DNA from: Nitrosopumilus sp.
Lineage (GTDB): Archaea; Thermoproteota; Nitrososphaeria; Nitrososphaerales; Nitrosopumilaceae
Assembly: GCA_965205425.1 (NCBI GenBank)
Contig: CBDBGZ010000004.1
Location: forward strand, 128,001 to 192,000
Direction: 5' to 3'
DNA: 64,000 bases
Shown here one piece after another: positions 34,022-42,809 of the stretch. A program made the position numbers and the translations under genes. Numbering within the stretch: position 1 is the first letter of the stretch; each line of letters begins with the position of its first letter. Under the pieces are notes generated by a model. The model was given only the letters and a program-made list of their open reading frames with translations. It was not told where the DNA came from and ran no database searches.

Positions 34022-34930
34022 GGTGATTGTAAACCTATTGCCCCCAAACTAATTTTATGTAATTATTGGAAAAAACTATCAATATCATTGAGCTATCCAA
34101 AATAGTTTCAGATAAATCAACATCATTAAAATTTCTGTGTAAAAGATTCAACAGTACAAGTTCTGTATGTTGTCCCAAGTGTGATTCTCCAAAATATTAT
34201 CTGATGAGCAGAGGGAATTTGAGATGCAGTAAATGTAAGACAAACTACAAACCATTCTCAGATACACAGTTTGGCATCATCAATATTGATTATCCAAAAT
34301 GGTTGGTTCTAATCAAACTATTTGATCTTGGGATTAGTGCAAGACGTGCAGCAAAAGAAGTTGGTGTTAGTTATCCTACCGCACTGCATTCTTTTGACAT
34401 CATGAGATTCTCAATACTTGAAGAACAATCCAAAACAGATGATGTTCTAAAGGGTCAGATTGAGGCTGACGAGGTACTATTTTGGAGGAAAAAGAAAGGG
34501 AAATCGTGGCAGAGGATCTAAAAACAAAACTATTGTATTTAGAATTTTAGAGAGAAATGGAAAAGTTCATGTTGAGATTGTAAAGAACGTAAAGGCCAAG
34601 ACACTTCTTACAAGTACTATCAAGAAAGTAAAGAAAGGAAGCATTGTGTATACGGACAAGTGGAGAGGATACAATTCGCTAGTTTTCAATGGCTACAAGC
34701 ATCTCTCAATAGACCACAGCAAGATGTTTGGCAAAGATGATGTGTACATAAATGGAATCGAAGGGTTTTGGAGTTTTGCAAAAGAGAACATGGCAAAGCA
34801 TCATGGTGTCAGTCCAGGTAAATTCTTGTTGTACATCAAAGAGATGGAATGGAGATACAACAACAGAGATGGAAGATACTTTCTCATTATTGCTTGATTA
34901 TATGTTGGTGGTGAATAATTGATAATCACC
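34022..34930 (+). mobile_element. IS1595-family element, frameshifted transposase
   Basis: TIRs GGTGATT...AATCACC; ORFs 34066-34521 and 34460-34897. Confidence 0.85.
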
Positions 34931-35705: not shown

Positions 35706-37024
35706 CAGTAGATAGGAAAGTGCTCAATTCGGATCAAAAAATAACGATCATTTTCTCAAATTATTCAGATAGAAAAAGCTTGATGAAAGTATGTCACTCC
35801 ATCAAATATGCATTGTACTTCATTTGATACCATGACACACCAAGGCGTGATACTATCTAAAGCATTTGAGATTATCACTAAAATAATGTACAATATCTTA
35901 TTGTTTCCATGCTCTAGTAAAAATAACTCACGGTTCCACAATGCAGACGCACATAATTCTATCATGTCATTGTGTTTGGGAAATTCATATTCTGAATCTG
36001 GATTAAAGAGACTGGCAATGGAATCAGATAATGCTTCTCCAACTGGTTTCATGGTTGAGAAAAATCATATCAAAAATATCACAAAAAACAATGCAAATTC
36101 AATTACATCGTTCACTGGATAGTACCATATCAAAATTACAAGAATTGGGAGTATTGGAACAACCAGTTACTGTAGCAATTGACAAACATCTAATCCCAAG
36201 ATATGACAAATTGCCAAACCATTCTTTAATAAAATCAAAATCTAAAAACAGTACTACTCATTTTGAGAGTTACTGCACCATGCAGTGCGTTGAAAAAAGA
36301 ATCAGGGCTCAATTAGGTTGTTATCCTTTGTATGACAACATATCAAATGCCGATTTTGTGCGTAAATTACTCTCTGATGGCATCAATAATGGAATCAAGA
36401 TTAAACTATTGCTAGTGGATAGGGAGTTTTTCACAGCTGGAACAATTTCAGAAATAAAACAAAGGAATTTAAAATTTCTAATGCCTGCAAAAAAGAATTC
36501 TCGAATCAAAGATGCAATTGTACAATACGTTAATGGAGATAGAAAGTCAATCTCGCCATACACAATAAAATCATCATCAGGACATGTAGAATCATTTAAT
36601 CTAGTTATTCTGCCAAACAAAAATGCAAGAAAAAAATCAGATATTATTGATCAGTATGTTGTGTTTGCAACAAACGTTTCACCAAAAGAAATATCATATA
36701 ACATACAAAACATTCCAACTGATTACAAGAAACGTTGGGGAATTGAAACAGGCTATGCATGTGTGGGAAGGTTCAGACCAAAAACCACCAGTTCAAACCA
36801 ATCCATAAGATTGTTGTATTTTTACTATTCATTGATTTTGTACAATGCATGGATAATTGCTAATTTGATTATCTCAGAAGAAACTAATGTAAAAAATTAC
36901 AAACCAATAATATCAATTGAAATTCTCAAATATTTCTTTGTAAAGATAATTATTCATTACTTTAGAAATAACAAAAATAATTATTTTCTAGAATGTGTAA
37001 TTTGATGTACTTTCCCATCTACTG
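35706..37024 (+). mobile_element. ISH3-family element copy 1, frameshifted transposase
   Basis: TIR CAGTAGAT(A/G)GGAAAGT; AID, DREF and YKKRWGIETGY motifs. Confidence 0.85.
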
Positions 37025-37208
37025 AATTAAAGATCGATCTTAAGATCGAAACATAATTTCTTATTGTTGTAAATTCAGATGTAAAATAGTGATTAGATCA
37101 CCAAAATGCACCAGCAGGGTCTAAAGTATAATTTCTATGGAAAATTATTCGTGTCCAAACCATACAATTTAAAAAAATGCAATTTGAAGAAGATCCATAT
37201 TTCATGAT

Positions 37209-37688
37209 GTGTGTGCTAGATCACTAGAATGCACCAGAACCGCAGTAGATGTGAAATCTAAACAGATCACAGGGATTGATATTACAGATGACAAGTCACA
37301 TGATTCAAAACATTTCATATCGCTAGTTGAGCAATCAAAACAGTTTGGCAATGTCACTAAAACTTTGGCTGATGGTGCATATGATACAAAGGATAATTTT
37401 TCATATCTGTATTATGATAATGATATTCTACCTGCAATTAAAACAAGAAAAAACTCATCAGTTGTAACTGATTGTTATCCTCGGAGAAAGTCCGTTTTGG
37501 CACAATTGTATAACTTGGATCTATGGAAGCTCAGCGTAAGCTATGGGGATAGATGGATTGTAGAGGGAGTATTCTCTGTATTCAAAAGAATATTTGGAGA
37601 GCATGTGACATCGCACAAGAGAGAAAACATGATTCATGAATTGAAAATGAAAGTTTGTCTGTACAATAAAATGATTGCAATGCAATAG
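37209..37688 (+). pseudogene. IS5-family transposase C-terminal relic
   Basis: LADGAYD and RWIVEGVFSVFKR motifs. Confidence 0.75.
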
Positions 37689-37768: not shown

Positions 37769-37811
37769 AAAAAAGAGATTAGCGCGTTGGCCTAACCTAC
37801 CTAAGAACTAA
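37769..37811 (-). ncRNA. Putative antisense RNA to tRNA-like gene 1
   Basis: 16-nt complement of the anticodon arm, then a 7-bp stem (G-U on the minus strand) and a U6 tract. Confidence 0.55.
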
Positions 37812-37845
37812 CATTATTAGTTTAGTGTTTTTTAATATACTTTGT

Positions 37846-37916
37846 GGGCCTGTAGCGTGACGGTCACGTACCTACCTAAGAACTAGGAGATTTGGGTTCA
37901 ACTCCCAACAGATCCA
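37846..37916 (+). tRNA. Non-canonical tRNA-like gene 1: Ala-identity acceptor, anticodon AAG
   Basis: Cloverleaf GGGCCTG/CAGATCC-A, T-arm TTGGG-TTCAACT-CCCAA, loop CT-AAG-AA, C31:C39 mismatch. Confidence 0.75.
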
Positions 37917-37979
37917 CGACTTTTAATTATGATTTATGTCAGGTAATTACTTTCCCAAGTACTGATGTTATTAGAATAG

Positions 37980-38021
37980 AAAAAGAGATTAGCGCGCTGG
38001 CCTAACCTACGTGAAACCTAA
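37980..38021 (-). ncRNA. Putative antisense RNA to tRNA-like gene 2
   Basis: Same scaffold as copy 1; the 16-nt segment co-varies with tRNA 2. Confidence 0.55.
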
Positions 38022-38054
38022 CGTTATTAGTTCAGATTTTATAATAAACTTTGT

Positions 38055-38125
38055 GGGCCTGTAGCGTGACGGTCACGCACCTACGTGAAACCTAGGAGAT
38101 TTGGGTTCAACTCCCAACAGGTCCA
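38055..38125 (+). tRNA. Non-canonical tRNA-like gene 2: Ala-identity acceptor, anticodon GAA
   Basis: Cloverleaf GGGCCTG/CAGGTCC-A with G3:U70, loop GT-GAA-AC. Confidence 0.78.
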
Positions 38126-38133
38126 CACTATAA

Positions 38134-38301
38134 TTAAGGTAAAAATGGTTTATGTTTTGCAGGAAATGCATCTCGTTTTTCTAGAAATACTCGTTCTTTT
38201 TGTGAATACCTACATCTCACATTATTGGTTGGAATTAGACGTGAACCCATACGAATCATGATGAATTGTTTTTGTGGGTTTGAAGCTGTGAGTTTTACCA
38301 T
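38134..38301 (-). CDS. Small basic hypothetical protein (55 aa)
   Basis: Manual translation MVKLTASNPQKQFIMIRMG...KHKPFLP*. Confidence 0.4.
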   Translation of the reverse strand: MVKLTASNPQKQFIMIRMGSRLIPTNNVRCRYSQKERVFLEKRDAFPAKHKPFLP

Positions 38302-38429
38302 TATTGTTGCAAAATTCTTCTCTGATCTAACTATTCGATATATCTAGGCACGACCTAAACACACACAGAGTCTCCATTATTGCTTGAAAATTCTTCTCTG
38401 ATCTAAATTATTCGGTTTAATCTAGGCGT

Positions 38430-38612: not shown

Positions 38613-40109
38613 ATGATATCTGACAAGACAGTAATTTTTTGTGTCTTGATAATATCAATAGCAGTTGGTCTACAGCCTTTTGAGGATTTTTTTGACCAGT
38701 TAGCAGAAAATATTTTTTATAATTCTACAACTGATATTGGTTTGGAGTTTATTGCAAAACAAGACAATTTACGCAGTGAATTATTTGATAACATAAATAA
38801 TAATGATTATTTTTATGAAAAAATAAAACATACAGATGTATACAAAGCATTTATTGAGAAATACCCTCATTCAACTTTAACACTAAAGCATGCTGATAAT
38901 GATCTTTTAGAATTTGTTTTATACCATGTATACTCTAATGAACCACTTTCAGTTATTATGATAACCTTTGAGGTATCATTAGAGGAAGGTTTCATAAATA
39001 CTAGCTATGACTGCATCGGTGATAACAGTGCTAATATTTACTATAAAATGCCTACATTGTTTTGGATAAACTCTGATCGTTGTCTTCATACTATGAATAA
39101 TAAAATTACTTCATACCATAATGATATGCCAATATTTAATGATCATCATACAATGTTTTTCATCAATGATACTTTTGATGGTGATCTTGAGGGGTGGAAA
39201 TTTTGGTCAGGATTCCCAAAATATACCTTGGAAATAGATTCAAAAGCGGTACACCTTAGTGGAGATAATTTTGTAACCCATATAGGTTTGGAAAAAAATG
39301 TGAATGTATCTAACCTAACTAACAAAGAATTAATCTTATCATTTGATTATAGAGTAAAATCAGATACTTCAGATAGTACAGTCACCAATTCGAAACTCAT
39401 AATTTATGATTCAGATTACAATGAATTATTTAAAGAAAGTCTTGTATCAGGAGGAATAAAGGATACTGGTTGGCAAACATACCAAAAAAATATTTCAAAA
39501 TTCATCACAGGAGAAACACAAATCAAAATTGTTCTAAGTTTACAGGATAATTGGATATATAATCATAATCAACATGCTTGGTTCGATAATATTTACCTTA
39601 TACAAGATAATTCAAAAGAGATAATTTTTGATACGTTTGATGGTGATCTTGAGGGATGGTCTCTATGGACTGGTAAAATAGGTTATGAATTAATCCATGA
39701 TTCTCAAGCTGCAATGATTAGTGGAAATAGAGTATCATCTGTTAATGGCATACAAAAAACTGTAGATATCTCAGAATTAAAGAATAATTCTCTTACGTTA
39801 TCTTTTGATTATAGAGCAACTTCAAATTCTGCTAAAATTGATGTAACAAATGTTCTAGTTTCTATCTACGATGCAGAATCATACAAGCTGCTTTTTGAAC
39901 ATTATTTTATAAGTGGGGGAACAAAGGATACTGGTTGGCAAAAATATGAAAGAAATATTTATGAACATGTTAGGAACTCAGATAAAATTATTATCGCCTT
40001 ATCTAGTATAGATAATTCATCTGAAGATTCTAAACATAAGAACTGGTATGATAATATACAATTATCAGATAAAATTAGCATGGATCTAGATACTATCACA
40101 TATGAGTGA
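38613..40109 (+). CDS. Membrane-anchored/exported protein with two tandem ~150-aa beta-sandwich-like repeats
   Basis: Duplicated DTFDGDLEGW...LSFDYR...GG.KDTGWQ...W.DNI. Confidence 0.75.
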   Translation: MISDKTVIFCVLIISIAVGLQPFEDFFDQLAENIFYNSTTDIGLEFIAKQDNLRSELFDNINNNDYFYEKIKHTDVYKAFIEKYPHSTLTLKHADNDLLEFVLYHVYSNEPLSVIMITFEVSLEEGFINTSYDCIGDNSANIYYKMPTLFWINSDRCLHTMNNKITSYHNDMPIFNDHHTMFFINDTFDGDLEGWKFWSGFPKYTLEIDSKAVHLSGDNFVTHIGLEKNVNVSNLTNKELILSFDYRVKSDTSDSTVTNSKLIIYDSDYNELFKESLVSGGIKDTGWQTYQKNISKFITGETQIKIVLSLQDNWIYNHNQHAWFDNIYLIQDNSKEIIFDTFDGDLEGWSLWTGKIGYELIHDSQAAMISGNRVSSVNGIQKTVDISELKNNSLTLSFDYRATSNSAKIDVTNVLVSIYDAESYKLLFEHYFISGGTKDTGWQKYERNIYEHVRNSDKIIIALSSIDNSSEDSKHKNWYDNIQLSDKISMDLDTITYE

Positions 40110-40175: not shown

Positions 40176-40640
40176 TTATCCTAAAACACTCCAATACATC
40201 AAAATTGATGCAAGGTAAACAAATCCCAGACAAGTCTCATAGTTCTTCTCATATCTGATTGCAGTCCTATGAAATCCACACTTGAGCCATGCAAAGAATC
40301 TTTCAACAACAAATCTTGTTTTGTTGTAATTGTTTTTTAGATTTTTTGCTATGATGTATTTGAAATTACTCCTGTATGGAATATAACAATCCATTCTATG
40401 ACATCTGAGATAATATCTAATGTATTTTGCATCATACCCTTTGTCTGTATATGCTGACACTATTTCTTGTATGGAACCATCATCCAAATATTCTGAGATA
40501 TTTTCTAACACATCAATGAATTTAGTATTATCGTGTTGATTTGCAGAACTGGTTCTAATTGAGATTGGCAGTCCATTTGATTCTACAGCAACATGTATTT
40601 TTGTGCCTAAAATCTTCTTGAATCCATCACATCCTATTTC
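40176..40640 (-). pseudogene. IS5-family transposase relic
   Basis: DKGYD, RFVVERFFAWLK and RYEK motifs. Confidence 0.75.
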
Positions 40641-41061: not shown

Positions 41062-41489
41062 TTATAAAAATCTAAACACAATTGGACAGTTAACTATTAT
41101 ACCTGTACTGCCAAACTCTCCACCATCAGGACCTGTAATCCATCCTTGCTCTACAAGGCCTAATATTTGGAATTCCTCAGTAACCCTAGAGTCATAGTGT
41201 TTTTCTAGTGCCTCATCCGTCCAAAATCCTAGATTAACATCCCAAAGCGGTGAGTAATCAGTAGCTATAGTTGGTATTCCACCTAACACGTTTAGTGGAG
41301 ATCTATGATCAACAATTGCTGAATTTAATCCCTGTCTTTGTGGATTTTTATCACCTGTTGGACCATTAGCCATTACAAAGATTCTCTCAACTGCCGAGAA
41401 TGCGGAATCATCACCACCTATTGGGATTTTTCCTAGAGACGGTGTTAGTGTTGCACCTTCAAGTGTTGCATCTAATGGATGATTGCTCT
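41062..41489 (-). pseudogene. 3' part of the gene starting at 34947
   Basis: Begins with the reverse complement of the AGAGC TSD; continues NHPLDATLEG...NCPIVFRFL*. Confidence 0.85.
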
Positions 41490-42809
41490 CAGTAGATGGG
41501 AAAGTAACTCAAGTTACACATTCTAGAAAATAATTATTTTTGTTATTTCTAAAGTAATGAATAATTATCTTTACAAAGAAATATTTGAGAATTTCAATTG
41601 ATATTATTGGTTTGTGATTTTGTACATTAGTTTCTTCTGAGATAATCAAATTAGCAATTATCCATGCATTGTACAAAATCAAGGAATAGTAAAAATACAA
41701 CAATCTTATGGATTGGTTTGAACTGGTGGTTTTTGGTCTGAACCTTCCCACACATGCATAACCTGTTTCAATCCCCCAACGTTTCTTGTAATCAGTTGGA
41801 ATGTCCTGTATATTTTCAGATATTTCTTTTGGTGAAACGTTTGTTGCAAACACAGCATACTGATCAATAATATCTGATTTTTTTCTTGCATTTTTGTTTG
41901 GTAGAATAACTAGATTAAATGATTCTACATGTCCTGATGATGATTTTATTGTGTATGGCGAGATTGACTTTCTATCTCCATTAACGTATTGTAAAATGGC
42001 ATCTTTGATTCGAGAATTCTTTTTTGCAGGCATTAGAAATTTTAAATTCCTTTGTTTTATTTCTGAAATTGTTCCAGCTGTGAAAAACTCCCTATCCACT
42101 AGCAATAGTTTAATCTTGATTCCATTATTGATGCCATCAGAGAGTAATTTACGCACAAAATCGGCATTTGATATGTTGTCATACAAAGGATAACAACCTA
42201 ATTGAGCCCTGATTCTTTTTTCAACGCACTGCATGGTGCAGTAACTCTCAAAATGAGTAGTACTGTTTTTAGATTTTGATTTTATTAAAGAATGATTTGG
42301 CAATTTGTCATATCTTGGGATTAGATGTTTGTCAATTGCTACAGTAACTGGTTGTTCCAATACTCCCAATTCTTGTAATTTTGATATGGTACTATCCAGT
42401 GAACGATGTAATTGAATTTGCATTGTTTTTTGTGATATTTTTGATATGATTTTTCTCAACCATGAAACCAGTTGGAGAAGCATTATCTGATTCCATTGCC
42501 AGTCTCTTTAATCCAGATTCAGAATATGAATTTCCCAAACACAATGACATGATAGAATTATGTGCGTCTGCATTGTGGAACCGTGAGTTATTTTTACTAG
42601 AGCATGGAAACAATAAGATATTGTACATTATTTTAGTGATAATCTCAAATGCTTTAGATAGTATCACGCCTTGGTGTGTCATGGTATCAAATGAAGTACA
42701 ATGCATATTTGATGGAGTGACATACTTTCATCAAGCTTTTTCTATCTGAATAGATTGATTGAATAATTGATAGTTTTTGATCTAAATTGAGTTACTTTCC
42801 CATCTACTG
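41490..42809 (-). mobile_element. ISH3-family element copy 2 (inverted)
   Basis: 23-bp perfect TIR CAGTAGATGGGAAAGTAACTCAA; same frameshift as copy 1. Confidence 0.85.

What the first reader, a model, noticed from the sequence alone, without database searches (positions are those of the whole stretch)
37846..38125. tRNA-like genes with alanine identity but Leu (AAG) and Phe (GAA) anticodons: predicted mistranslators
Seen: 71-nt cloverleaves that differ at only 2 positions outside the loop. Both have G1-C72, G2-C71, G3:U70, A73, U33 and A37, a C31:C39 mismatch, and an unusually self-complementary D arm (GCGTGAC-G-GTCACG). Established: G3:U70 is the main AlaRS identity element, AlaRS ignores the anticodon, and archaea generally lack A34 anticodons such as AAG. 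Inference: these would insert Ala at CUN or UUY codons. They could alternatively act as decoys for anticodon nucleases.
Basis: partly seen in the sequence, partly recalled or inferred. Interest (0 to 1): 0.85.

Follow-up and report, generated by a model that had tools for sequence, protein, structure and literature searches.

The report
Alanine-type tRNAs paired with antisense RNAs
An ammonia-oxidising archaeon carries, on mobile DNA, tRNA genes marked for loading with alanine but reading leucine or phenylalanine codons, and each sits beside a small gene that matches its own anticodon arm, which suggests a controlled, possibly toxic, miscoding device.

Summary
ARAGORN and Rfam (46.8 and 49.2 bits) find two 71-nt tRNAs at 37846-37916 (AAG) and 38055-38125 (GAA). 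Both carry G1-C72, G2-C71, G3:U70 and A73.

They are not decayed copies. They belong to a family of 32 genes in 12 of 401 searched genomes of the family, probably Nitrosopumilaceae. The alanine acceptor set is invariant in 31 of 31 aligned sequences, all four stems covary, and only the anticodons AAG, GAA, GAG, GTC and GAT occur.

Each tRNA gene has a degenerate copy of its own 5' half at a fixed distance, with the anticodon-arm part kept nearly perfect: 30 of 32 show at most 3 mismatches in 15 nt, against a mean of 7.8 for non-cognate pairs. On the strand antisense to the tRNA, the companion reads as a roughly 45-nt RNA gene with a TATA box, a 5' guide, a hairpin and a T-run.

My best reading is an alanine-loaded miscoding tRNA held in check by its own antisense RNA, a toxin-antitoxin-like cassette on mobile DNA. 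Expression, charging and toxicity are untested. Six literature searches found no description of it. Earlier scan notes reported serine-type tRNAs with a Phe anticodon in this genome, but not this family or its companion.

The parts
37846..37916 (+). tRNA-shaped gene 1: alanine acceptor set (G1-C72, G2-C71, G3:U70, A73), anticodon AAG (Leu CUU). It has C31:C39 and C4:A69 mismatches and no encoded CCA.
   Evidence: ARAGORN; Rfam 46.8 bits; row win_AAG of alignment A1.
38055..38125 (+). tRNA-shaped gene 2: the same body, anticodon GAA (Phe UUY), an intact acceptor stem and a C31:C39 mismatch.
   Evidence: ARAGORN; Rfam 49.2 bits; row win_GAA of alignment A1.
37769..37813 (-). Companion 1, read on the minus strand as a predicted ~45-nt antisense RNA. 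The 5' guide is the complement of 37796-37810 and matches positions 27-41 of tRNA gene 1 at 15 of 15. It is followed by the hairpin 37775-37797 and a T6 run (plus-strand A-run 37769-37774). The ends are predicted, not mapped.
   Evidence: 15-nt exact copy 50 nt upstream of G1; coordinates checked; hairpin -7.7 kcal/mol on this strand against -5.5 on the other; 3' motif search.
37980..38023 (-). Companion 2, the predicted antisense RNA for tRNA gene 2. The guide is the complement of 38006-38020 (15 of 15), followed by the hairpin 37985-38007 and a T5 run (37980-37984). It carries the same four loop differences that separate tRNA gene 2 from gene 1.
   Evidence: repeat family D3.
37828..37840 (-). 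TATA-like box for companion 1 on the minus strand (GTATATTAAAAAA). It abuts the tRNA gene, and its centre lies about 25 nt upstream of the guide's first base.
   Evidence: Sequence. The box GTTTAWW is conserved at the same place in 23 unique type-A units.
37812..37820 (+). TATA-like box CATTATTAG for tRNA gene 1, 26-34 nt upstream of G1, which implies a transcript start at or just before G1. It is interleaved with the companion's promoter.
   Evidence: Sequence. Its reverse complement, a TAATAAT-like box, is seen by eye in most of the type-A units listed.
38037..38049 (-). TATA-like box for companion 2 on the minus strand (GTTTATTATAAAA).
38022..38030 (+). TATA-like box CGTTATTAG for tRNA gene 2.
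37917..37965 (+). Relic. 37917-37946 equals the promoter-like start of a second kind of companion gene (type B), as found intact after the orthologous tRNA gene of genome G177. It is cut off by a 19-nt insertion-sequence end (37947-37965).
   Evidence: Comparison of the downstream flanks of L204 and the window; repeat D7 and inverted repeat I24; further genomic copies of the IS end.
35723..37025 (.). Left copy of a 1303-nt insertion sequence (DDE transposase). With its inverted twin it brackets the tRNA pair like a composite transposon.
   Evidence: Inverted repeat I1, 98% complementary; Pfam DDE_Tnp_1.
41489..42791 (.). Right, inverted copy of the same insertion sequence.

Best explanation
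Each unit is a two-gene RNA cassette carried on mobile DNA.

Gene 1 is a true L-shaped tRNA. It keeps the acceptor-stem marks that AlaRS reads (G3:U70 with G1-C72, G2-C71 and A73) but has a Leu (AAG) or Phe (GAA) anticodon; in relatives the anticodons also include Leu GAG, Asp GTC and Ile GAT. Once charged with alanine it would put Ala at CUU or UUY codons.

Gene 2 is a small RNA of about 45 nt transcribed from the strand antisense to the tRNA. Its own promoter abuts the tRNA gene. Its 5' end pairs with positions 27-41 of its own tRNA, that is the 5' strand of the anticodon stem, the whole loop and part of the 3' strand. The rest is a degenerate antisense of the tRNA's D arm and 5' acceptor strand, and it ends in a hairpin plus a U-run.

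Pairing would start at the open anticodon loop and spread, masking the anticodon and unfolding the tRNA. The miscoding tRNA would therefore act only when the small RNA is scarce.

The layout is an adjacent, non-overlapping antisense gene, present as many mutually specific paralogues, patchily spread and sitting on mobile elements. That is the layout of type I and type VIII toxin-antitoxin pairs, so the likely role is addiction of the mobile element, abortive infection, or a switchable burst of mistranslation.

Shown here: the tRNA family, its invariant alanine set, the co-varying companion and its fixed geometry. Inferred: the transcribed strand, charging by AlaRS, decoding, inhibition and toxicity.
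For: 1. The tRNA family is real and selected. 31 distinct members form the cloverleaf in 95.2% of cells, 14 of 20 pairs change on both sides, and 0 of 500 shuffles reach the observed covariation.

2. The alanine set is invariant. G1-C72, G2-C71 and G3:U70 are found in 31 of 31 and A73 is invariant, while acceptor pairs 4-7 covary. Bodies are at most 73% identical to any ordinary host tRNA.

3. Anticodons are limited to AAG (10), GAA (12), GTC (7), GAG (2) and GAT (1) among 32 genes. Position 37 is A in all aligned members. Four of these five anticodons are two or more changes away from any Ala anticodon. Phe, Asp and Ile Y-ending codons are abundant in this genome at 44, 60 and 66 per 1000.

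4. The companion is specific. Cognate guide/arm mismatches over 15 nt were 0 in 10, 1 in 10, 2 in 7, 3 in 3, 4 in 1 and 5 in 1 of the 32 genes. Non-cognate pairs average 7.8. The 10 core positions hold 6 mismatches in 290 cells.

5. The control is clean. Among 59 ARAGORN tRNAs of the genome, only members of this family have a copy or antisense of 11 nt or more of their own arm within 250 nt (6 by exact match; the seventh, C2:54916, appears once mismatches are allowed). One ordinary tRNA-Thr has a 9-mer.

6. The geometry is fixed. The copy starts 47-51 nt upstream in 25 type-A units. It lies antisense 33-36 nt downstream in 6 of 7 type-B units, and 56 nt downstream in the seventh.

7. The antisense strand looks transcribed.
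- A TATA box (GTTTAWW or TTTAATTA) lies about 25 nt before the guide's first base.
- A T run of at least 5 follows the hairpin in 21 of 23 unique type-A and 7 of 7 type-B units.
- 20 of 28 transition mismatches are G:U-compatible for this strand against the tRNA.
- Hairpins average -7.9 kcal/mol on this strand against -6.3 on the other.

8. The predicted duplex of small RNA with tRNA is -39.8 to -45.6 kcal/mol, against -21.2 to -29.8 for the tRNA's own fold.

9. The relation is one to one. The genome holds exactly 7 such small-RNA 3' motifs, each beside one of the 7 tRNA genes. The guides have no other target with fewer than 2 mismatches.

10. The context is mobile. Neighbours are transposases of several families. 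In G080 two members bracket ParM-like, TFIIB-like and TraG/HerA-like genes. Distribution is patchy: 9 of 99 genomes of the genus, with up to 7 copies per genome.

11. The principle of toxicity is known. In yeast, tRNA-Ala with a GAA anticodon slowed growth from a single-copy plasmid and gave no transformants from a multicopy plasmid (PMC10543346, passages seen).
Against: - There is no expression, processing or charging evidence of any kind. No run on record as RNA holds the locus.
- Several features suggest poor decoders. Pair 31:39 is unpaired in 21 of 31 members. Position 33 is C instead of U in 7 of 32. A37 is kept whatever the codon's first base. The D arm of the window's subfamily is a 5-bp stem with a 5-nt loop.
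- The AAG copy in the window has a C4:A69 mismatch next to G3:U70, which may weaken AlaRS recognition.
- The strand asymmetry of the hairpin is modest. The antisense strand is the more stable one in only 17 of 29. The sequence is AT-rich, so TATA-like boxes are easy to find.
- The companion is a partial copy of the tRNA's 5' half. Part of the likeness could therefore come from repeated duplication or gene conversion and not from selection for pairing.
- No clear T-run follows the tRNA genes themselves.
- The serine-type tRNAs with a Phe anticodon in the same genome have no such companion, so a brake is not a general need of such tRNAs.
Confidence: 0.45

Rival explanations
1. A tRNA-shaped regulatory RNA pair that does not decode. 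The cloverleaf and its antisense partner would control something for the mobile element, such as copy number, transfer or maintenance, in the manner of the cloverleaf-like RNA I with RNA II of ColE1 plasmids. Alternatively the tRNA shape serves only for processing and stability. The alanine marks would be kept for a reason other than translation, for example charging-dependent stability or use of Ala-tRNA outside the ribosome.
For: Features expected of poor decoders are common: 31:39 unpaired in 21 of 31, C33 in 7 of 32, and unusual D arms. The cassette has no conserved protein partner and sits on mobile DNA. The complementarity is far longer than a codon.
Against: This reading gives no reason why G3:U70, G1-C72, G2-C71 and A73 are invariant in 31 of 31 while the rest of the body drifts. 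It also does not explain why the three central loop bases stay within five sense anticodons with A37 fixed while the flanking loop and stem bases vary freely. The same genome also holds serine-type tRNAs with a Phe anticodon. It is established knowledge that Ala and Ser are the identities whose synthetases ignore the anticodon, which points to miscoding as the purpose.
Confidence: 0.22
2. The companion acts in the sense orientation or as DNA. In this reading it is a truncated copy of the tRNA's 5' half that mimics the anticodon arm. It could serve as an RNA competitor for a factor that binds the arm, or as a DNA site recognised through the tRNA-like RNA or by a recombinase.
For: The companion is a degenerate copy of tRNA positions 2-41. 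Identity to its own tRNA's first 26 nt is 0.65, against 0.53 for other members. Hairpin energies favour the antisense strand in only 17 of 29. Transposases, including the IS110 type, are frequent neighbours.
Against: On the antisense strand, 28 of 30 unique units have a T run right after the hairpin, and the TATA box lies at the right distance from the guide. The sense strand has no comparably conserved signals. Mismatches are biased to G:U-compatible ones for antisense pairing, 20 against 8. The element occurs in both orientations relative to the tRNA gene, yet always keeps the same promoter-guide-hairpin-T-run order on its own strand. No recombinase family is shared by all loci.
Confidence: 0.13
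3. One reading: free-running mistranslators, or decoys for anticodon nucleases, with the upstream copy being a meaningless by-product of local duplication.
For: The alanine identity set and the foreign anticodons are real. Mobile elements of bacteria are known to carry tRNAs that counter anticodon nucleases (recalled, not checked here).
Against: A meaningless duplicate would decay evenly. Here the anticodon-arm part is kept at 0-3 mismatches in 30 of 32 units across three genera while the rest has drifted to about 65%. The four loop differences between the window's two tRNA genes are mirrored exactly in their companions. As decoys, the loops share little beyond the anticodon with the host's own tRNA arms. 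No nuclease gene is a conserved neighbour.
Confidence: 0.1
4. Decayed tRNA pseudogenes, or scars of mobile-element integration into tRNA genes (partial tRNA copies at att sites).
For: The locus is crowded with insertion sequences, and the AAG copy has an acceptor mismatch. Thaumarchaeal mobile elements often integrate into tRNA genes: 39 of 68 in PMC6563490 (passages seen).
Against: Compensatory change in all stems, with 95.2% of cells paired, argues against decay. Members occur in 12 genomes of 3 genera. Integration scars copy the 3' part of a tRNA and lie kilobases away (all but one case in PMC6563490). Here the 5' half is copied 47-51 nt upstream, or inverted 33-56 nt downstream.
Confidence: 0.03

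Closest known systems
Natural mistranslating tRNAs: bacterial tRNA-ProX/ProA of Streptomyces and relatives (PMC10404621, abstract seen), human tRNA-Ala anticodon variants (PMC12084884, abstract seen), nematode nev-tRNAs (recalled)
   Same: Identity elements for one amino acid are combined with the anticodon of another. The genes are conserved in several genomes and are not single mutants.
   Different: This family is archaeal and alanine-type. There is no dedicated second synthetase: the genome has one AlaRS gene. Each gene comes with a cognate antisense partner, which I did not find reported for any of those in the abstracts and passages I saw.
Engineered tRNA-Ala anticodon variants in yeast (PMC10543346, passages seen)
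   Same: Both have G3:U70 identity with GAA, AAG or GAG anticodons. The yeast work shows Ala misincorporation and a growth cost. The GAA variant gave no transformants on a multicopy plasmid.
   Different: Those are laboratory constructs in a eukaryote. The family here is natural, diverged and mobile-element-borne.
Type I toxin-antitoxin pairs with a divergent, non-overlapping antisense gene (tisB/istR-1, zorO/orzO, shoB/ohsC; recalled)
   Same: A small antisense RNA gene lies next to its target gene without overlapping it, with roughly 15-20 nt of complementarity. There are several mutually specific paralogues per genome, spread patchily.
   Different: In those pairs the target is an mRNA for a toxic peptide. 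Here the target is a tRNA itself, and no peptide is involved.
Type VIII (RNA toxin plus RNA antitoxin) systems, e.g. CreTA of Haloarcula, in which the CreT RNA sequesters a rare tRNA-Arg (recalled)
   Same: Both are RNA-only pairs in archaea that would act through translation and tRNA.
   Different: CreT is an mRNA-like RNA that traps a host tRNA, and CreA needs Cascade to repress it. Here the putative toxin is a tRNA, and the partner would act by direct base pairing, with no conserved protein neighbour.
Serine-type tRNAs with a Phe (GAA) anticodon in the same genome (earlier scan notes e1-7820712 and e1-7820707)
   Same: Same genome, also on mobile DNA, the same target codons, and an identity class whose synthetase ignores the anticodon.
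   Different: They have a different body with a long variable arm. No antisense companion was found within 250-300 nt.
Archaeal box C/D guide RNAs that pair with tRNA anticodon arms (PMC6009581 and PMC7994747, seen only as listings)
   Same: A small RNA has a 10-15 nt stretch complementary to a tRNA anticodon region.
   Different: No C, D, C' or D' boxes flank the guide, and no Rfam C/D family matches the companions. The guide sits at the 5' end and is followed by a terminator-like hairpin.

Membership tests
tRNA (Rfam RF00005) | Cloverleaf of four stems, scored by the covariance model above the gathering score. | tested here: met
   46.8 and 49.2 bits against a gathering score of 29. The family alignment is 95.2% paired, and 0 of 500 shuffles reach the observed covariation.
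tRNA (Rfam RF00005) | Elbow nucleotides: GG in the D loop, T-loop TTCRANY and the G53-C61 pair. | tested here: met
   One D-loop G is invariant and its neighbour nearly so. G51-G53, T55, C56, A58 and C61-C62 are invariant in alignment A1.
tRNA (Rfam RF00005) | A 7-nt anticodon loop closed by a 31:39 pair, with U33 and a purine at 37. | tested here: inconclusive
   U33 and A37 are present in both window genes, but 31:39 is C:C. Family-wide, 31:39 is unpaired in 21 of 31 and C33 occurs in 7 of 32.
Alanine-accepting tRNA (AlaRS substrate) | G3:U70 wobble pair. | tested here: met
   G:U in 31 of 31 aligned members.
Alanine-accepting tRNA (AlaRS substrate) | A73 discriminator with G1-C72 and G2-C71. 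| tested here: met
   Invariant columns in alignment A1.
Alanine-accepting tRNA (AlaRS substrate) | Actual aminoacylation with alanine. | not testable with these tools
   This needs an in vitro charging assay or charged-tRNA sequencing. The genome does encode one AlaRS.
Alanine-accepting tRNA (AlaRS substrate) | Anticodon NGC, reading GCN codons. | tested here: not met
   The anticodons are AAG and GAA in the window, and AAG, GAA, GAG, GTC or GAT in all 32 members.
Natural mistranslating tRNA with a dedicated synthetase (tRNA-ProX/ProRSx type) | A second, specialised synthetase gene accompanies the tRNA. | tested here: not met
   There is a single match to the AlaRS core domain PF01411 in the genome. 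No synthetase is among the neighbours.
Toxin-antitoxin pair with an RNA antitoxin (type I / type VIII layout) | An adjacent small gene whose RNA is complementary to the toxin RNA, specific to its own partner. | tested here: met
   At sequence level only. Cognate mismatches are 0-3 of 15 in 30 of 32, against a non-cognate mean of 7.8. There are 7 companions for 7 tRNA genes in the genome.
Toxin-antitoxin pair with an RNA antitoxin (type I / type VIII layout) | The toxin harms the cell and the antitoxin neutralises it. The antitoxin is less stable than the toxin. | not testable with these tools
Toxin-antitoxin pair with an RNA antitoxin (type I / type VIII layout) | Patchy spread, multiple paralogues and location on mobile elements. 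| tested here: met
   12 of 401 genomes carry members, with 1-7 copies each. Flanks hold insertion sequences and conjugative-element-like genes.
Box C/D methylation guide RNA | C (RUGAUGA) and D (CUGA) boxes flank the guide, with the target base 5 nt from the D box. | tested here: not met
   No C/D family of Rfam matches the companions at E <= 1. No boxes are seen by eye next to the guides.
Integration scar (partial tRNA copy at an att site) | A copy of the tRNA's 3' part, separated from the gene by a whole integrated element. | tested here: not met
   The copy is of the 5' half, 47-51 nt upstream or inverted 33-56 nt downstream.

The most novel reading that the evidence does not exclude
This would be a new class of selfish or defensive module made only of two small RNAs. 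The toxin is a tRNA that AlaRS loads with alanine but that reads Phe, Leu, Asp or Ile codons, poisoning the whole proteome by miscoding. The antitoxin is a short-lived antisense RNA that grips the anticodon arm and unfolds the tRNA. Loss of the mobile element, or a shut-off of host transcription by a virus, would free the stable tRNA and stop the cell.
Probability: 0.3. Interest if true: 0.95.

Novelty: new variant of a known kind. Interest (0 to 1): 0.85.

Why it matters
If the reading holds, evolution has used the one weak point of the genetic code's enforcement, synthetases that do not check the anticodon, as a weapon or a switch. It has also built a dedicated RNA brake for it.

That would have three consequences:
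- It would be the first natural alanine-type mistranslator family in archaea.
- It would be the first case of a tRNA gene with its own antisense regulator.
- It would be a toxin-antitoxin-like cassette of under 200 bp without any protein.

It would also bear on how mobile elements persist in ammonia-oxidising archaea, which are abundant in the sea. The many mutually specific guide/loop pairs form a natural set of orthogonal RNA pairs. Even if the tRNAs do not decode, a conserved pair made of a cloverleaf and an antisense RNA is a new regulatory design that can be tested directly.

Tried and rejected
- Searches used a search pattern with a wrong internal gap (44-54 instead of the true 39-42 nt). 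They could not have found the family and count for nothing.
It yielded only one Nitrosopumilaceae record, an ordinary tRNA-Ala, so it says nothing about spread outside the family.
- The corrected pattern on viral contigs gave 70 loci. 68 were parsed as ordinary Ala anticodons (52 TGC, 9 CGC, 7 GGC) and 2 were not parsed. No member of this family was found there with this strict pattern.
- At class level, 105 genomes outside the family gave 2 matches, both ordinary tRNA-Ala(TGC). The pattern demands TGT before G1 and a narrow T loop, so relatives that differ would be missed.
- Sequencing runs: no RNA holder was listed. I did not lay reads, because contigs cannot show RNA ends.
- A leaderless mini-ORF in the companion (ATG TTA GTT CTT ...). 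The cognate codon is in frame in some type-A units, but the ATG is ACG or ATA in others and the codon is out of frame in G016. I take it as the reverse complement of the tRNA gene's TATA box.
- Companions for the serine-type Phe-anticodon tRNAs: none found.
- Other targets for the guides in the genome: none with fewer than 2 mismatches.
- A conserved protein partner: none. Neighbours are transposases of several families, plus a small AbrB-like ORF at 3 type-B loci.
- Literature searches found no description of this family or of a tRNA/antisense cassette. The library lacks most subscription journals, so this is not proof of absence.
- Searches failed on term formatting only.
Full report
**What is at the coordinates**

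ARAGORN finds two tRNA genes in the window, at 37846-37917 (anticodon AAG) and 38055-38126 (GAA). Rfam's tRNA model scores them 46.8 and 49.2 bits against a gathering score of 29.

Both genes have G1-C72, G2-C71, G3:U70, A73, U33, A37, a C31:C39 mismatch and the D arm GCGTGACGGTCACG. They differ at four loop positions and two positions elsewhere.

The genes lie in a 209-bp tandem duplication. They sit between two inverted copies of a 1303-nt insertion sequence, 35723-37025 and 41489-42791, which are 98% complementary. An insertion-sequence end relic lies between the two units at 37947-37965.

**A family, not an accident**

The window is part of a 2.2-Mb, 33% G+C archaeal genome, G000. An earlier scan note calls the genus Nitrosopumilus. 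A named record that shares its coordinates with a family member suggests the family is Nitrosopumilaceae.

The genome holds seven genes of this kind:

| Anticodon | Copies | Locations |
|---|---|---|
| AAG | 2 | window; C9:454069 |
| GAA | 2 | window; C8:191679 |
| GTC | 3 | C2:54916; C9:254430; C9:711260 |

A strict pattern search of 401 genomes of the family found matches in 68.
- In 56 of them the matches are ordinary tRNA-Ala(TGC) that happens to be preceded by TGT.
- In 12 genomes they are 32 genes with non-alanine anticodons: 9 of 99 genomes of the genus, 2 of 5 of genus g14 and 1 of 3 of genus g16, with one to seven copies each.

Searches elsewhere with the same strict pattern gave no further members.
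- Outside the family, 105 genomes of the class gave only two ordinary tRNA-Ala genes.
- 70 viral-contig loci gave 68 ordinary tRNA-Ala genes, 2 sequences that ARAGORN did not parse, and no member of this family.

Relatives that differ in the flank or the T loop would be missed by this pattern.

**Selection on the tRNA shape and on the alanine marks**

I aligned 31 distinct members and counted a cloverleaf that I wrote by hand on the alignment.
- 95.2% of cells are paired, against 73.3% in shuffles.
- 14 of 20 pairs change on both sides.
- The covariation score is 0.659 against 0.201, and 0 of 500 shuffles reach it.
- Sliding the partners by one to three columns drops pairing to 35-50%.

G1-C72, G2-C71 and G3:U70 are the same in 31 of 31, and A73 is invariant, while acceptor pairs 4-7 run through three to six pair types each. 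The elbow nucleotides are also invariant.

The bodies are at most 73% identical to any ordinary tRNA of the host, so they are old and diverged, not recent copies. It is established knowledge that G3:U70 is the main mark read by AlaRS in all three domains and that AlaRS does not read the anticodon. The genome has one AlaRS gene.

**The anticodons**

Among the 32 genes the anticodons are AAG (10), GAA (12), GTC (7), GAG (2) and GAT (1). Position 37 is A in all 31 aligned sequences.

None of them reads the mild neighbours of alanine (Gly, Ser, Thr, Val, Pro). Four of the five are at least two changes away from any alanine anticodon.

In long ORFs of this genome the codon frequencies are as follows:

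| Codons | Per 1000 |
|---|---|
| Phe UUY | 44 |
| Asp GAY | 60 |
| Ile AUY | 66 |
| Leu CUU | 16 |

The same genome also has serine-type tRNAs with a GAA anticodon (earlier notes). Alanine and serine are the identities whose synthetases ignore the anticodon.

Upstream of each window gene lies a 15-nt exact copy of the gene's own anticodon arm, at 37796-37810 and 38006-38020. The four loop differences between the two tRNA genes are mirrored in the two copies.

Across all 32 genes the copy is present at a fixed place.
- Type A (25 units): the copy lies in the same orientation, starting 47-51 nt upstream of G1.
- Type B (7 units): the copy is inverted, starting 33-36 nt downstream of A73 in six units and 56 nt downstream in the seventh.

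Mismatches to the gene's own arm over 15 nt:

| Mismatches | 0 | 1 | 2 | 3 | 4 | 5 |
|---|---|---|---|---|---|---|
| Genes (of 32) | 10 | 10 | 7 | 3 | 1 | 1 |

The one with 5 mismatches is a visibly decayed unit in G014. Against other members' arms the mean is 7.8 mismatches, and 47 of 992 non-cognate pairs have at most 3. By eye these are mostly close paralogues or orthologues.

Mismatches sit at the ends of the match. The ten central positions hold 6 mismatches in 290 cells.

As a control I examined all 59 ARAGORN tRNAs of up to 200 nt in the genome. Only members of this family have a copy or antisense of 11 nt or more of their own arm within 250 nt (six by exact match, the seventh once mismatches are allowed). 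One ordinary tRNA-Thr has a 9-mer.

**What the companion is**

On the strand antisense to the tRNA, every companion has the same order of parts:
1. a TATA-like box (GTTTAWW in type A, TTTAATTA in type B) that abuts the tRNA gene;
2. about 25 nt further on, the first base of the guide;
3. a hairpin, often ending in (A)ACTAGCC, or GCTAATCTC in the window's subfamily;
4. a run of five or more T, found in 21 of 23 unique type-A and 7 of 7 type-B units.

Oligo-T is the usual archaeal termination signal, and about 25 nt is the usual distance from a TATA box to the transcript start (established knowledge). The predicted product is therefore a roughly 45-nt RNA with its guide at the 5' end.

Two further observations lean the same way.
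- Of 28 transition mismatches between guide and arm, 20 would be G:U pairs if this strand pairs with the tRNA and 8 would not. A further 8 mismatches are transversions.
- The hairpins fold to -7.9 kcal/mol on average on this strand and -6.3 on the other. However, this strand is the more stable one in only 17 of 29.

The genome contains exactly seven such 3' motifs, one beside each of the seven tRNA genes.

**Origin and reach of the pairing**

Duplex prediction shows that the companion is antisense to the whole 5' half of its tRNA, not only to the arm. The duplex energy is -39.8 to -45.6 kcal/mol, against -21.2 to -29.8 for the tRNA's own fold.

Read in the sense direction, the companion is a shortened, degenerate copy of tRNA positions 2-41. 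Outside the arm it is 0.65 identical to its own tRNA and 0.53 to other members.

The element therefore arose by direct or inverted duplication of the tRNA's 5' half. Since then the arm part has been kept nearly perfect while the rest drifted. That sharp contrast is what one expects of selection for pairing at the anticodon arm, and not of plain decay or uniform gene conversion.

In a scan of 45-nt flank windows against each tRNA, the seven family members give the seven strongest duplexes of the 59 tRNAs. Their values are -39.8 or lower, the best ordinary tRNA reaches -38.2 and the median is -29.9. The margin is small, and the two window genes are inflated by each other's presence.

**Promoter for the tRNA genes**

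In type A units a second box lies 26-34 nt before G1: CATTATTAG at 37812-37820 and CGTTATTAG at 38022-38030. It implies a transcript that starts at or just before G1.

The two promoters are interleaved within about 45 bp and face opposite ways.

In type B units no T-run separates the tRNA gene from the companion, so read-through would give a precursor whose trailer is antisense to its own 5' half.

**Context**

No protein gene is shared by all loci. The neighbours are transposases of the IS4/IS5, IS630, IS110, IS66, IS1595 and rve kinds. A small AbrB-like ORF lies at three type-B loci.

In G080 two members bracket ParM-like, TFIIB-like and TraG/HerA-like genes, as in an integrated conjugative element. 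In G353, three of the six copies lie within 30 kb.

In the window, the 29 nt after the first tRNA gene equal the start of a type-B companion gene. That gene is intact at the same place in G177, where its guide fits a GTC-type loop and no matching tRNA gene lies within 3 kb. In the window it is cut off by the insertion-sequence end.

**Most likely mechanism**

The tRNA is made with little or no leader, gets CCA, and is charged with alanine by the host's AlaRS. It then competes with the proper tRNAs at CUU or UUY codons; in relatives the targets are GAY, AUY and CUY codons.

The small RNA is made from the adjoining promoter. It nucleates on the anticodon loop, which is widened by the frequent 31:39 mismatch (21 of 31). 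It then zips into the stem and the D arm, which hides the anticodon and unfolds the tRNA.

The design has these features:
- an adjacent, non-overlapping antisense gene;
- many mutually specific pairs per genome;
- patchy spread;
- location on mobile elements.

This is the design of type I and type VIII toxin-antitoxin pairs (recalled). In yeast, a tRNA-Ala with a GAA anticodon slowed growth and could not be kept on a multicopy plasmid (PMC10543346, passages seen).

I put 0.45 on this chain as a whole, about 0.7 on the antisense strand being the transcribed one, and about 0.3 on the full toxin-antitoxin reading.

**What speaks against it**

- Nothing is known about expression. No run on record as RNA holds the locus.
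- Several features predict poor decoding: the 31:39 mismatch, C33 in 7 of 32, A37 whatever the codon, and the 5-bp/5-nt D arm of the window's subfamily.
- The AAG copy has a mismatch next to G3:U70.
- The strand evidence from hairpin energies is modest, and AT-rich DNA offers many TATA-like boxes.
- The serine-type miscoding candidates in the same genome have no companion.
- A non-decoding RNA pair that regulates the mobile element, or a companion that acts in the sense direction or as DNA, is not excluded.

**Comparison with what is known**

Natural mistranslating tRNAs are known in bacteria (PMC10404621, abstract seen), in humans (PMC12084884, abstract seen) and in nematodes (recalled). The bacterial ones come with a dedicated synthetase, which is absent here.

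RNA-only toxin-antitoxin pairs are known, such as CreTA in Haloarcula (recalled). There the toxin traps a tRNA and is not one itself.

Box C/D guides also pair with tRNA anticodon arms, but the companions have no boxes and no Rfam match.

Integration scars copy the 3' part of a tRNA and lie far away (PMC6563490, passages seen). That does not fit the companion's position or content.

Six literature searches found no description of this family or of a tRNA gene with its own antisense gene. The library lacks most subscription journals.

I file it as a new variant of known kinds, namely mistranslating tRNAs and antisense-controlled RNA pairs. If the tRNA proves to be the toxin, it would be a new class.

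**Limits of what I did**

- The family counts rest on one strict pattern and on sampled genomes, many of them incomplete.
- Related genomes are not independent, so the shuffle tests overstate significance.
- G260, flagged as unpublished, contributed only an ordinary tRNA-Ala match. No claim depends on it.

Noticed in passing
G000:C9:1042184-1042268 and G000:C9:356124-356210 (outside the window): ARAGORN lists two further tRNAs with long variable arms but non-Ser/Leu anticodons (ACC and CCT). This is besides the three long-arm GAA ones already noted by the scan (C8:120792, C9:254931, C9:901280). One of those lies 430 nt from the alanine-type cassette at C9:254430. None has an antisense companion.
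   Followed up: partly
window 37917-37965: The 29 nt after the first tRNA gene equal the promoter-like start of a type-B companion gene that is intact at the same place in genome G177 (L204). There its guide fits a GTC-type loop, with no such tRNA gene within 3 kb. In the window it is cut by a 19-nt insertion-sequence end.
   Followed up: partly
window 35723-37025 and 41489-42791: Two inverted copies of a 1303-nt DDE-transposase insertion sequence, 98% alike, bracket 4.5 kb like a composite transposon. The bracketed stretch holds the tRNA pair, transposase fragments (37209-37688 and 40176-40511) and one long ORF.
   Followed up: partly
window 38613-40109 (+): A 498-aa ORF with internal repeats of about 154 aa (DNA repeats spaced 462-465 nt apart). 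It has no Pfam family. The protein atlas gives only weak leads (0.84-0.88) to carbohydrate-binding or galactose-binding-like domains.
   Followed up: partly
G000:C8:191834 (+) and G000:C9:254349 (-), and L207: A small ORF of 53-69 aa starting MPKWK lies divergently upstream of three type-B cassettes. It has an AbrB/SpoVT-like look by eye and was not tested against any library.
   Followed up: no
window 38259-38406: A C-box-like ATGATGA and a D-box-like CTGA lie about 65 nt apart, and a 33-nt repeat occurs twice, 76 nt apart (38298 and 38374). There is no Rfam match at E <= 1.
   Followed up: partly
window 34066-34897: An IS1595-type transposase is split into two overlapping ORFs, a zinc ribbon and a DDE domain. 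It is another sign that this stretch is an insertion-sequence graveyard.
   Followed up: no
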